Of a stretch of DNA of 63,589 nucleotides, positions 1-3,000 are shown piece by piece. How positions within the stretch are numbered: position 1 is the first letter of the stretch; each line of letters starts with the position of its first letter. This DNA comes from a plasmid, in NCBI RefSeq assembly GCF_055900595.2, contig NZ_PP320290.1. One strand, given 5' to 3'. The position numbers are program-made.

Positions 1-3000
1 GTGCAGGGGCTGGTGAATCAAAAGAATCCATACCTACAGCTTTCTGACATTGAGTCAGTAGAAGGTCTTTCGCCGGAGTTCATCTCCTGGCTTGAAAGCC
101 AGTCCCCTAAAGAATCGCCCCTGCAGCTGCTTCTCGATGAAGGCACCAAGCCCGTGCGCAAAACCCGCCGTCGTCGCGGTACGCACTCAACGGCGTGTCT
201 CTGCCCGGAGCCCAGCTGGTACCGACCGGACAATTTCAAAAAGCTCCCTGGCCAGCTTGGCCATGCCTACAACCGCCTTGTTCGCCGCGATCGCAAAACG
301 GGCGCGTTAAGTCTGCGTATGCGGATCAGCCGCCACCCGTACTTCGTGCAGCTGCGCGAGCAGGCTGGCCGGAAGCGCGACTTCCGCCCGGAGCGGGAGA
401 AATTACTCGATGCGATTGTGCCGCTCCTGGTCAGCACCGTTGACCGGGCTACCCATATCGACACTATCAACCTCAGTAAAATGGCGTGGCAGCTCAGCGA
501 AAAGGACAGCGAAGGGAACGTGATCCGGAAAGTGACGGTACCGCGGGTTTGCCGGCTGCTGCAGCACATGATGGAATTCGGGTTACTGGCGCTGCCTGAA
601 GGCGTCACATGGGACCCGTTTAACCGCAAGTGGTTCCCCAAGCATGTCGTGCTGACGGAACGCCTCTGGAAGATGATCGGTGTTGATCTCGATAAGCTGT
701 ATGCGGAGCAGGCCGAACAGGTGGCCGCTGAAGCTGCAGGCTGGATAACCCGTGATGAACATGGCCAGGCGGAAGAAATCTCTGTTAAAGCCGCGCGCCG
801 GCGCTGGTATGAAAAAATGATGCACGCCACGCTGGTTCGCCGGCGTGAAGCCGCCCTGAAGGGTAAGCGCGAGAAGAAGCTGAAAGCGCTGGCAGAACAG
901 CCCTATGACGACCGGGCTTACGCCATGTCCGTTCATCTGATACGGACGCTGCCGAAAGACGAACTGCACGCGCTGTCGCCTGAGCAGTTTACCCAGCGAG
1001 TACGCAGCCACCTGTATCAGCTCGATCTGGGGCTGGAGAGGGAATCCGGTCCCCCTGATTATCACTGATTTTCTCCCCCTGTAATTCTCTTACCGCCGCC
1101 TGGCGGTTTTCGTGCTCGCCAGCCGGCGCGACCTGCTCAAATTTCCTCCAGTTTTAACGTGTGGCCATCGTGATTTTTTGACGTTCTGGCGCCGCCGGTG
1201 GATAACCGGCAGCGAGATCACCACTATCCACAGTTATCCGCAAAGGAGGAAATAAAGTCACCTGCAATCGTGGTCAAAGCAAGCTGCAATACACTCTTAA
1301 CTTCTTTAAAAAGATGTTTATTCAATAAAGAGATCACTGTTATTCAGGCTCAATTTTCTGTGGATTATGGGAATATGCCTGGCCTTTCAGCGCCGCTACG
1401 CGGCACGACGGCCAGAATGGTCGCTATGCTCCCAGGTTAGCACCCGGCAAATGCCGGGCAGGGTGGCCAGCAGAAACCACCACTGTAGATTTTTCTTTGC
1501 CCCACCGTGCTTTTCCCCGCCGAGCCAACGGCTCGGCAGAAAAAAGCATGATGGATGATGTAACTAAGAACACCCCCGTAAGACGGAAGGGCTGCGACCC
1601 GCACCCCTGACGTCAACGCTACTACCCACGCGCCCGGTGCGCCGCTAACGTCACACCGCCCGCTCGCAGTAGCCAGGGGGTAATGTGGCCACAGCGTCAC
1701 CTGCAGGGCAGTCAGGCAGGAAAATCATCTGCTATGGCGTGCAATGCCTTTCAGGCAATCAACGCCAGTGTCTGCTGTCAGTTTTAAAATTAACAGGGAA
1801 AAGAGGATCGATTTAGCCGCGGTTATCCACGTCAGCCGCTCGCAGGCGCGTTAAAAAGGGTGAAGGCAGGGGAATGTTGCTCTTTTTGCAGTGAAGGCCA
1901 CAGAGAGCGTTTCAGGCGCTTATTTGAGGAAATGCGATTTCTGCCAGGGTGGAGGCACAAAAAAACCCGACTGGTGAGATCGGGTTTTCATGTTTTGCCC
2001 CGGATGGAGGCGGGAACACCTAAACAATTGACGGTTAAATATTACGCCATGAGTGCAGTAAATGCAAACCACCGGGAATAGGGTATACTGCGCGGGTCAA
2101 TCTGTTGACGTTCTTCTCCAGCCCCCGCTTACGCGGCGTGAACGGTTTAAAGCCCTGGTTGAAAAACAGGTGGTGCTGTTTCAATGCCCTGGCTGGAGTG
2201 GGAACATCTAAACAATTGACGTGAGGTAGCCGCTGTGACAGGCAATGTAAGGGCGATCAGCGGTGTTCCTGCTCTGTATGGAGCAAACGGATGATTAACT
2301 TGTTAATCGTCGTTCTGCGGGCAGTTGTTGCAGTGTCTAACGCTGTGATAGCGGTCCTGGAGCTGATCCGGCAGTATTTTGACTGACCGGAAACGTAACT
2401 AAAGGCGGGGGGACCACTCCCCGCCTTTTAACAGGGTTACATCTCGATCATCGGGAACAGATCGTCTTCCTGGTGGTAAAGCACGTCGTCCGTTTCCGTT
2501 CCATCAAGCCATTCAGCGAACAGTTCAAACAGGCACACCGACATTTCCTCCGGTGAAATTGCGCCACACTGCAGCTCGTAGAAGACCTCAATTTTTTCCA
2601 GCAGGCTGTTGGCCGCTTTGTCGTAGCCGAACAGCTTGATCGGCGGGAATCGCATTGCATCCGGGTTGGTTTCCGCCAGTTCATCATCCTTGCGTTCCGG
2701 ATAAATGCTGTACAGCGTTGCCGGCGATGGCGGCAATACCTCGATAAAGCGGTTTATCCGCATCGGCAGTTCGCTGGAAAACTTCTCATTGTCCGGAATG
2801 TAAAACGCGGCGCTGCGTACCAGGGCATCCTGGAAAGAAATTACCCCCTGACCTTCGGTCTGCTTACGTAGCTCACGAATGTTCACGCGGTCCTTTTCAC
2901 GGATTTGGTACAGATCCCCTTCCCGGACCGTTTTGGAAAACGTGCCGTGTTCGGCTTCCTGCCCGGAGAGCTCAGAATAATAATCCTGGCCGACGGTTTC

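What the first reader, a model, noticed from the sequence alone, without database searches (positions are those of the whole stretch)
1959..2429. Unannotated tisB/istR-like type I toxin-antitoxin candidate between oriV and trbC
This supposedly empty spacer has the full architecture of a trans-antisense type I TA locus. (i) A 31-codon ORF (2291-2386, MINLLIVVLRAVVAVSNAVIAVLELIRQYFD) encodes one hydrophobic helix with a polar tail and is TisB-sized. Its GGAG is half-buried in a TGCTC/GAGCA hairpin. (ii) A near-consensus minus-strand promoter (TTGCAT-17-TAATAT, 2067-2039) fires into a ~75-nt unit that ends in an 8-bp stem plus T run (1987-1959). (iii) The first 22 nt of that RNA are copied from repeat R1 (2012-2033). 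The second copy R2 (2200-2221) is 21/22 identical, and the one change yields a G-U pair. R2 lies in the same orientation ~70 nt upstream of the ORF start, so the sRNA is antisense in trans to the toxin leader. Weaker similarity extends to 37 nt. A + strand TATACT -10 (2084-2089) with a weak -35 sharing the sRNA's -35 hexamer could make the long-leader mRNA. The ORF is below the 60-aa cutoff of the track. I know of no annotation here in pOXA-48-type plasmids, whose only recognised addiction module is pemIK.
Basis: partly seen in the sequence, partly recalled or inferred. Interest (0 to 1): 0.8.

Follow-up and report, generated by a model that had tools for sequence, protein, structure and literature searches.

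The report
Known DqlB/agrB plasmid addiction module
The "empty" spacer between the replication origin and trbC of this pOXA-48-type plasmid really does hold a small membrane-toxin gene and the antisense RNA that silences it, but this DqlB/agrB module is already annotated in RefSeq and was validated experimentally on pOXA-48 in 2025.

Summary
The reading as a type I toxin-antitoxin locus with a trans-acting antisense RNA is correct.

The precise family is DinQ/AgrB, not TisB/IstR:
- The 31-aa ORF scores 73.5 bits (cut-off 35) on NCBIfam NF041473, "DinQ-like type I toxin DqlB".
- The minus-strand RNA (2031-1959, 73 nt) is the only significant hit in the window (E 5e-6). The covariance model was built from K-12 agrA/agrB and ten plasmid homologues.
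- The mRNA leader aligns along its length with E. coli dinQ. It carries the same four switch elements.

In 16 loci the sRNA 5' end and its target co-vary, and the ORF is under purifying selection.

It differs from dinQ in having no LexA box, a single agr gene, and a plasmid-addiction role.

The novelty claim fails. RefSeq annotates dqlB here. Baffert et al. 2025 (PMC12365149) showed toxicity, rescue by agrB, compensatory base-pair mutants and post-segregational killing on pOXA-48 itself. Two other 2025 papers concur.

Verdict: real, correctly interpreted, already known. One modest open lead remains: the recognition sequences form predicted orthogonal "specificity types", and some plasmids carry orphan agr genes of foreign type.

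The parts
2291..2386 (+). dqlB toxin ORF: 31 aa, a single hydrophobic helix with the LELIR motif
   Evidence: ORF list. NCBIfam NF041473 DqlB, 73.5 bits against a cut-off of 35, full length 1-31/31. Annotated as dqlB in RefSeq plasmids. Intact at 31 aa in 14 other dqlB loci. pN/pS 0.10-0.28 in the 10 loci divergent enough to measure.
1959..2031 (-). agrB antitoxin sRNA, 73 nt. The 5' ~42 nt are the antisense region. A small internal hairpin and a terminator follow.
   Evidence: A covariance model built from K-12 agrA/agrB and 10 plasmid homologues, with the window excluded, gives its only significant hit at 2031-1960 (-): 36.9 bits, E 5.4e-6, model positions 1-86/86. Aligned with the annotated K-12 agrA/agrB. 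Rfam AgrB RF02891 matches the same place below threshold, 18.8 bits. Fold z-score -2.4 with the first 12 nt unpaired.
2039..2067 (-). agrB promoter: -35 TTGCAT (2067-2062), 17-nt spacer, -10 TAATAT (2044-2039)
   Evidence: Read from the sequence. The hexamer positions are conserved in most of the 12 homologous loci while the flanks vary. Not called by the consensus scanner. Baffert et al. recovered no Tn insertions in agrB or its putative promoter.
1959..1989 (-). agrB Rho-independent terminator: an 11-bp stem with loop CUCACCA, then a U run
   Evidence: Inverted repeat I8. MFE fold. Stem and loop are conserved across loci.
2012..2033 (.). Repeat R1, the DNA that encodes the 5' antisense core of agrB
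2176..2219 (+). agrB target in the dqlB leader. It includes repeat R2 (2200-2221) and switch element 2 (about 2194-2208).
   Evidence: RNAduplex finds this as the best target of the sRNA in the whole window: -65.0 kcal/mol, against -44.9 or weaker elsewhere, apart from the sRNA's own gene. It is homologous to dinQ G88-A119, the mapped AgrB site. It co-varies with copy 1 in 16 loci.
2084..2089 (+). dqlB -10 element, TATACT. The predicted +1 is G2096.
   Evidence: Aligns with the dinQ -10 (TATGAT) and its +1. A TATAAT-like hexamer lies 204-227 nt upstream of the ATG in 13/13 loci. No transcript data were examined.
2096..2123 (+). 5' arm of stem S1 (contains switch element 1, CUCCAGCC at 2116-2123). 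It pairs with 2191-2220 and masks the agrB site in the primary transcript.
   Evidence: MFE fold. Predicted pairing of the 5' end with the target is -31 kcal/mol for cognate pairs, against -20 +/- 4 for non-cognate pairs over 13 loci. Homologous to dinQ S1.
2262..2275 (+). Switch element 3. It pairs either with element 2 (SD open) or with the SD (SD closed).
   Evidence: 14 contiguous pairs with 2194-2207 in the window. 5-14 contiguous pairs (7 or more in 12 of 13 loci), with compensatory changes. The fold switches when the 5' end is truncated.
2271..2284 (+). SD hairpin (elements 3:4). The SD, GGAG, is at 2280-2283.
   Evidence: The hairpin is 94.6% paired across 13 loci.
2401..2432 (+). dqlB terminator hairpin (10-bp stem). 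It lies 8 nt from the convergent trbC stop, so it probably works in both directions.
   Evidence: I14. Conserved with compensatory stem changes in dinQ and dql loci.

Best explanation
This is the agrB-dqlB type I toxin-antitoxin (addiction) module of IncL plasmid pOXA-48. It is a plasmid member of the E. coli dinQ/agrB family.

Components:
- dqlB is transcribed rightward from about 2096 as a roughly 335-nt mRNA with a 195-nt structured leader. It encodes a 31-aa inner-membrane toxin.
- agrB is transcribed leftward from 2031 as a 73-nt sRNA.

Proposed mechanism:
1. In the primary mRNA, the 5' end (2096-2123) pairs with 2191-2220. The SD stays locked in a hairpin, so the transcript is inert and poorly accessible to agrB (inferred from the fold and from dinQ).
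2. Removal of the 5' end lets element 2 (2194-2208) pair with element 3 (2262-2275). This frees the SD (inferred).
3. agrB pairs through its 5' ~40 nt with 2176-2219. That takes element 2 away from element 3, re-closes the SD hairpin and creates an RNase III substrate. The toxin is therefore not made while the plasmid is present. Base-pairing dependence is shown genetically on pOXA-48. The structural switch and RNase III step are shown only for dinQ.
4. After plasmid loss the antitoxin is depleted, as Baffert et al. interpret it. The remaining mRNA is then translated and the cell is killed as a 'ghost' cell. Post-segregational killing (PSK) and rescue by agrB are shown on pOXA-48. Differential RNA stability is inferred.

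Unlike dinQ, the promoter has no LexA box, so expression is presumably constitutive rather than SOS-induced.
For: Family membership:
- The toxin scores 73.5 bits on the DqlB equivalog model.
- RefSeq annotates dqlB at this exact place.
- The sRNA is the only significant hit in the window for an agr covariance model built without it.
- The mRNA aligns with K-12 dinQ from the -10 to the terminator. The published dinQ elements map onto it.

Structure:
- Folds reproduce S1 plus a closed SD in the full leader, and a 2:3 duplex with an open SD after 5' truncation.
- Across 13 loci the leader structure is 82.5% paired, against 34-59% for slid controls, and one stem has 5 of 7 pairs changed on both sides.
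- The 2:3 helix shows compensatory changes.

Antisense pairing:
- The target is unique in the window.
- Cognate duplexes are -51 to -64 kcal/mol. Non-cognate duplexes between unrelated specificity types are -23 to -47. Closely related pairs overlap the cognate range.
- As a control, K-12 agrB scores -62.7 on dinQ and the inactive agrA scores -47.2.
- Core identity is 18.2/20 within a locus and 8.8/20 between loci. None of 100,000 permutations reached the observed value.
- IncL, IncM and IncN variants carry parallel substitutions, and one parallel 1-nt insertion, in both repeat copies.

Coding: pN/pS is 0.10-0.28 with near-saturated synonymous sites.

Experiments (literature):
- Baffert et al. 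2025, PMC12365149: Tn-seq essentiality of agrB, arabinose-induced toxicity, ghost cells, rescue in trans, loss and restoration by 4-nt compensatory mutants, and full rescue of killing after plasmid curing (4.0e7 versus 1.9e6 cfu/ml).
- PMC12361523: CRISPRi guides on agrB are strongly depleted.
- PMC12317039: the IncX3 homologue is toxic and stabilises a plasmid.
Against: - Rfam's own AgrB model scores only 18.8 bits, below its gathering score of 40.
- Neither promoter reaches the scanner's 9/12 threshold.
- Transcript ends, 5' processing, RNase III cleavage and RNA half-lives have not been measured for the pOXA-48 locus in anything I read. Those steps are carried over from dinQ.
- MFE predictions for the truncated leader depend on where it is cut: 2136 keeps the SD closed, while 2139-2145 disrupt the SD hairpin and only 2142 leaves GGAG fully unpaired.
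- The permutation test ignores the relatedness of the loci.
Confidence: 0.95

Rival explanations
1. It works as an SOS/DNA-damage-induced stress toxin, like chromosomal DinQ, and not as an addiction module.
For: It is homologous to dinQ throughout. One paper predicted a weak LexA site near a dqlB on another plasmid, pTF2.
Against: There is no CTG-N10-CAG core anywhere in 1900-2450. The same plasmid has a canonical box, TACTGTATGTATAAACAGTT, at 14837-14856 before its umuDC-like genes. The dinQ LexA box position aligns with non-matching sequence. The pTF2 site lies in a conserved leader stem, and its pOXA-48 counterpart has 9-nt spacing instead of 10 (read). PSK was shown directly.
Confidence: 0.04
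2. R1 and R2 are protein-binding repeats (iterons or operator sites) of the IncL origin, and the ORF and hairpins are incidental.
For: The repeats lie a few hundred bases from the oriV region, and direct repeats are typical of origins.
Against: There are only two copies. The same repeat architecture travels with dqlB on plasmids typed or annotated as IncN, IncI1-type, IncFII and IncFIB, on an OXA-181 plasmid, and in chromosomes, all with unrelated replication regions. Copy 1 always sits right after a conserved promoter and before a terminator. Compensatory RNA-pairing mutants behave as an antisense model predicts.
Confidence: 0.01
3. It is a member of the TisB/IstR-1 family.
For: The architecture is the same: a ~30-aa helical toxin, a long leader activated by 5' processing, and a divergent trans-acting sRNA that binds far upstream of the SD. 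Kristiansen et al. discuss this similarity.
Against: No TisB family matched in Pfam or NCBIfam at E up to 10; only DqlB and DinQ matched. No IstR match in Rfam at E up to 10. There is no LexA box. The nucleotide alignment is to dinQ.
Confidence: 0.01

Closest known systems
agrB-dqlB of pOXA-48 (Baffert et al., Nat Commun 2025, PMC12365149); the dql family was named by Kristiansen et al., RNA 2016 (PMC5066626)
   Same: It is the same locus. The window matches pOXA-48-type plasmids at 100%. The position between repA and trbC, the toxin, the sRNA and the ~35-nt pairing region all agree.
   Different: Nothing substantive differs.
E. coli K-12 dinQ-agrA/agrB (Weel-Sneve 2013, PMC3567139, listed and not read here; Kristiansen 2016)
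   Same: Homologous toxin: 13 identical residues, including LELIR, in the codon-level alignment. Homologous leader with elements 1-4. Homologous sRNA with its 5' antisense region. Divergent gene order, with about 260-275 nt between the toxin start codon and the nearest agr 5' end.
   Different: The peptide is 31 aa instead of 27 aa: there is a 7-codon insertion, and 3 codons are absent near the C-terminus. There is one agr gene, not two. The sRNA is 73 nt instead of 82 nt, with a shorter central hairpin. There is no LexA operator. It is plasmid-borne with a PSK role, whereas dinQ is a chromosomal SOS gene.
tisB/istR-1
   Same: A trans-encoded divergent sRNA, a long leader, activation by 5' processing, and a small helical membrane toxin.
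   Different: No sequence homology was detected. For tisB, Kristiansen et al. describe a standby-site mechanism and an SD that stays closed after processing, which differs from the dinQ switch. tisB is LexA-controlled.
hok/sok (plasmid R1 parB)
   Same: A plasmid type I PSK module with an inert full-length mRNA activated by processing. Ghost-cell killing.
   Different: From established knowledge, Sok is a cis-encoded overlapping antisense RNA that acts through the mok reading frame. hok mRNA is activated by 3' processing of a fold-back element, not by 5' trimming. There is no Hok family match.

Membership tests
DqlB toxin (NCBIfam NF041473, equivalog) | Score above the curated cut-off over the full model length | tested here: met
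   73.5 bits against a cut-off of 35, E 8.7e-21, residues 1-31 on model 1-31/31.
DqlB toxin (NCBIfam NF041473, equivalog) | A conserved 31-aa hydrophobic peptide maintained as a coding sequence | tested here: met
   14 other dqlB loci are all 31 aa with no stops. pN/pS is 0.10-0.28 in the 10 divergent ones.
DqlB toxin (NCBIfam NF041473, equivalog) | Toxic on expression, acting on the membrane | not testable with these tools
   Reported for this locus in PMC12365149: no growth on arabinose, and ghost cells.
DinQ proper (NCBIfam NF041472) | Score above the curated cut-off | tested here: not met
   19.6 bits against a cut-off of 30. Only residues 18-28, around the LELIR motif, match.
DinQ proper (NCBIfam NF041472) | LexA operator overlapping the promoter (SOS control) | tested here: not met
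   No CTG-N10-CAG in 1900-2450. The dinQ box aligns with non-matching sequence.
AgrB sRNA (Rfam RF02891) | Rfam gathering score | tested here: not met
   18.8 bits against 40, E 3.4. The match is full length (1-84) at 1958-2038 on the minus strand.
AgrB sRNA (wider family including plasmid homologues) | Significant match to a model built from K-12 agrA/agrB and plasmid agr genes, window excluded | tested here: met
   36.9 bits, E 5.4e-6, model 1-86/86 at 2031-1960 (-). The next hit has E of 4.
AgrB sRNA (wider family including plasmid homologues) | Divergent from the toxin gene, with its own promoter and intrinsic terminator, and a 5' end antisense to the toxin leader upstream of the SD | tested here: met
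dinQ-type leader switch (elements 1:2, 2:3, 3:4) | Four mutually exclusive pairing elements at homologous positions | tested here: met
   Found by prediction and comparison only.
dinQ-type leader switch (elements 1:2, 2:3, 3:4) | 5' processing to a translatable mRNA, and RNase III cleavage of the duplex | not testable with these tools
   Shown for dinQ only. I read no data for pOXA-48.
TisB/IstR-1 | Sequence membership of the toxin or the sRNA | tested here: not met
   No TisB model hit. No IstR hit at E up to 10.
Origin iterons | Multiple Rep-binding direct repeats tied to a replicon type | tested here: not met
   Two copies only. The repeat pair moves with dqlB across unrelated replicons.
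Plasmid addiction (PSK) module | Killing after plasmid loss that is prevented by supplying the antitoxin | not testable with these tools
   Reported in PMC12365149. Viable transconjugants were 4.0e7 (control), 1.9e6 (plasmid cured) and 4.0e7 (cured with agrB supplied).

The most novel reading that the evidence does not exclude
The antisense recognition cassette may be a fast-evolving specificity determinant. It comprises four co-varying pieces: the agrB 5' end, its target (element 2), the mRNA 5' end and element 3. Together they would split dqlB modules into orthogonal 'immunity types'.

On this reading, the pOXA-48 (IncL) type is distinct from the types on the IncI-type plasmids and the OXA-181 plasmid sampled. 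It is only borderline-compatible with the IncM and IncN types: predicted duplexes of -50 to -52 kcal/mol against -58 to -61 for cognate pairs.

Some plasmids stock orphan agr genes of foreign specificity, which could act as anti-addiction devices against competing plasmids. An IS26-made orphan IncM-type agrB sits on an IncFIB plasmid.

None of the papers I read describes this. It rests only on predicted duplex energies in about 18 loci.
Probability: 0.35. Interest if true: 0.45.

Novelty: already known. Interest (0 to 1): 0.15.

Why it matters
pOXA-48 is a main vehicle of carbapenem resistance. This module is a major reason the plasmid is hard to lose: supplying agrB alone abolished killing after curing. 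That matters for plasmid-curing strategies, and it has already been published.

For the scan, the value is twofold. First, it confirms that a sequence-only reader can recover a real type I TA locus, with nearly exact boundaries, from an unannotated spacer. Second, it shows that ORFs below the 60-aa track cut-off hide functional genes.

The residual scientific value lies in three untested points:
- the transcript ends and the processing site;
- constitutive expression, implied by the missing LexA box;
- whether agrB variants of IncL, IncM and IncN plasmids cross-protect.

Tried and rejected
- tblastn of the 31-aa peptide against PLSDB returned nothing. BLASTP of DqlB against DinQ gave no alignment. 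These are probably limits of BLAST on short, low-complexity hydrophobic queries, so I treat them as uninformative. HMM and nucleotide searches replaced them.
- The consensus promoter and terminator scanner called neither promoter and neither module terminator on the expected strand. The hexamers fall just under its threshold, the agrB loop is longer than the 8 nt it allows, and the dqlB T run has only 4 T. Conservation across loci was used instead.
- Column-wise counting of the 2:3 helix on the MAFFT alignment was spoiled by gap placement in the hypervariable region. I replaced it with a per-locus register analysis anchored on the invariant GGAG and CTCC.
- The 5' 60 columns of alignment A3 are unreliable. 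Stem S1 was therefore tested with cognate versus non-cognate duplex energies, not with pair counts.
- The Rfam AgrB hit is below threshold and is not evidence on its own.
- I did not use the large protein-database, structure-prediction or metagenome searches. The family assignment was already unambiguous and the peptide is a single helix.
- The iteron, SOS-toxin and TisB-membership readings were considered and rejected, as set out under the rival explanations.
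Full report
**What the window is.** It begins with an IncL/M-type repA. The stretch 1900-2450 matches many 63.5-kb pOXA-48-type plasmids at 100%. In all, 1125 PLSDB records match, mostly from Klebsiella, Enterobacter and Escherichia.

**Observation.**
- The 31-codon ORF at 2291-2386 is present as described.
- The 22-nt repeat pair is R1 (2012-2033) and R2 (2200-2221), 21/22 identical. These are the only copies in the window at up to 3 mismatches, with none expected by chance.
- The minus-strand hexamers TTGCAT-17-TAATAT (2067-2039) exist. So do the hairpin plus U run at 1989-1959, the plus-strand TATACT (2084-2089), the SD hairpin (2271-2284) and the hairpin after the ORF (2401-2428).
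- The consensus scanner called none of the promoters. By position they match 7-8 of 12, so 'near-consensus' is too strong.

**Identity of the toxin.** Pfam has no match. NCBIfam NF041473, 'DinQ-like type I toxin DqlB', matches end to end at 73.5 bits against a cut-off of 35. The DinQ model matches weakly around the LELIR motif. RefSeq copies of this plasmid annotate the ORF as dqlB. Many GenBank copies call it 'hypothetical protein' or leave it blank. About 31% of complete E. coli genomes (1705 of 5426) carry a related locus, nearly always on plasmids.

**Identity of the sRNA.** I fetched 12 diverged loci and the K-12 dinQ-agrAB locus. In almost all of them, copy 1 of a repeat lies just downstream of a conserved TTGxxx-17-TAxxxT promoter and upstream of a conserved terminator whose loop reads UCACCAG or a close variant. 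The window RNA aligns with the annotated K-12 agrA and agrB, which puts its 5' end at 2031. Rfam's AgrB model matches the same place full-length but below threshold: 18.8 bits against 40. I built a covariance model from K-12 agrA/agrB and ten plasmid homologues, leaving out the window and its IncL/M/N relatives. Its single significant hit in the 63.6-kb window is 2031-1960 on the minus strand, at 36.9 bits and E 5.4e-6, full length.

**Identity of the mRNA.** The window aligns with K-12 dinQ from the -10 through the terminator. The published dinQ coordinates reproduce exactly on the K-12 sequence I fetched: +1, elements 1-4, and the AgrB site G88-A119 (PMC5066626). Carried over to the window, they give:
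- +1 at G2096;
- element 1 within 2096-2123;
- the AgrB site at about 2176-2219, containing element 2;
- element 3 at 2262-2275;
- SD at 2280-2283.

The -10 is conserved in 13 of 13 loci.

**Mechanism, as far as sequence can show.**
- The full leader folds with a long stem S1 (2096-2123 with 2191-2220) and a closed SD hairpin. Truncating the leader at 2139-2145 makes 2194-2208 pair with 2262-2275 and disrupts the SD hairpin. This is the dinQ model.
- On the 13-locus alignment, the leader helices are 82.5% paired, against 34-59% for slid controls. One stem has 5 of 7 pairs changed on both sides.
- The 2:3 helix keeps 5-14 contiguous pairs (7 or more in 12 of 13 loci), with compensatory changes.
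- The sRNA's best target in the whole plasmid is R2 and its left flank.

**Co-variation of antitoxin and target.**
- In every locus the best upstream direct repeat has its second copy 88-105 nt before the ATG. The repeat sequence itself differs between lineages.
- Core identity is 18.2/20 within loci and 8.8/20 between loci. None of 100,000 permutations reached the observed value, although the loci are not independent.
- Predicted duplexes are -51 to -64 kcal/mol for cognate pairs. Pairs of unrelated specificity types give -23 to -47. Close relatives (IncL/IncN, L003/L004, L005/L010) overlap the cognate range. The known-active K-12 agrB scores -62.7 on dinQ and the known-inactive agrA scores -47.2, which serves as a built-in control.
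- Within the closely related IncL, IncM and IncN copies, the few differences cluster in R1 and R2 and occur in parallel. One is a 1-nt insertion present in both copies.
- The mRNA 5' end co-varies with the same target: -31 kcal/mol cognate against -20 +/- 4.
- The ORF is under purifying selection: pN/pS is 0.10-0.28, with 38-77% of synonymous sites changed.

**Differences from dinQ.**
- There is no LexA box core anywhere in 1900-2450. The same plasmid has a canonical box before its umuDC-like genes.
- There is one agr gene, not two.
- The sRNA is shorter, 73 nt instead of 82 nt.
- The toxin is 31 aa, not 27 aa.

**What is already known.**
- Kristiansen et al. 2016 defined the dql genes on plasmids and chromosomes.
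- Baffert et al. 2025 found this very locus between repA and trbC of pOXA-48. No Tn insertions were tolerated in agrB or its promoter. DqlB was toxic and produced ghost cells. agrB in trans rescued. A 4-nt mismatch abolished rescue and a compensatory change restored it. agrB alone fully rescued killing after CRISPR curing.
- A plasmid-wide CRISPRi screen saw strong depletion of guides hitting agrB.
- An IncX3 homologue was shown to be toxic and to stabilise a plasmid.

The statement that pemIK is the only recognised addiction module of pOXA-48 is therefore out of date.

**Rivals.** Three alternative readings fail:
- Iterons: there are only two copies, and the repeats travel with the TA module across unrelated replicons.
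- An SOS stress toxin: there is no LexA box, and PSK has been demonstrated.
- TisB/IstR membership: no sequence match was found.

**Side observations in relatives.**
- One plasmid has two tandem agrB-dqlB modules. They encode an identical toxin but have different, predicted-orthogonal recognition sequences.
- Another has three agr genes before one dqlB. Two of them match the dqlB leaders of other plasmids, not its own.
- An IncFIB plasmid keeps an IncM-type agrB and leader, while IS26 has removed the toxin ORF from its start codon onward.

These suggest specificity types and orphan antitoxins. I found no discussion of this in the papers I read, and it is untested.

**Verdict.** The locus is already annotated and experimentally characterised, so it is of low interest as a discovery.

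Noticed in passing
L009 (NZ_JBRXAJ010000004.1, pMEI153) 1-62, 357-442 and 603-688, minus strand; dqlB ATG at 946: An array of three agr sRNA genes sits upstream of a single dqlB. Only the nearest is cognate to that dqlB (-52.5 kcal/mol). The other two carry the recognition sequences of dqlB leaders found on other plasmids (-50 to -57 against those, -28 and -33 against their own). They may be orphan 'anti-addiction' antitoxins, or relics of deleted modules.
   Followed up: partly
L018 (NZ_AP027219.1, pJNE170426-2) 35932-37103: Two tandem agrB-dqlB modules encode an identical 31-aa toxin but have different antisense recognition sequences. They are predicted to be orthogonal: cognate -58.7 and -54.4 kcal/mol, cross -34.5 and -41.2.
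   Followed up: partly
L014 (NZ_CP109697.1, E. asburiae IncFIB plasmid) 1501-1874, with IS26 from about 1875: An IncM-type agrB and the complete dqlB leader are intact. The toxin ORF is replaced from its start codon onward by an IS26 end (GGCACTGTTGCAAA), which leaves an orphan antitoxin on an unrelated plasmid.
   Followed up: partly
window 14837-14856, with ORFs 14872-15306 and 15255-16559: A canonical LexA box, TACTGTATGTATAAACAGTT, lies just upstream of ORFs that I read by eye as umuD-like and umuC-like (not searched against any library). It served as an internal control for the absence of such a box at dqlB.
   Followed up: partly
window 14188-14445 and 14315-14779: A short ORF is followed by an overlapping longer one. 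By position and translation these look like the pemI/pemK type II addiction pair, the plasmid's other TA system. I did not run them against any protein library.
   Followed up: no
window 1198-1208 and 1820-1830; 1502-1554: In the region the finding calls oriV, an 11-nt perfect inverted pair GTGGATAACCG / CGGTTATCCAC contains DnaA-box-like TTATCCAC motifs. There is also a 25-nt imperfect palindrome at 1502-1554.
   Followed up: no
window, whole length: CTG-N10-CAG occurs 33 times, against 17 +/- 4 expected from shuffles, and none of 100 shuffles reached 33. Most occurrences are inside coding regions and are probably a codon-composition effect and not LexA sites.
   Followed up: no
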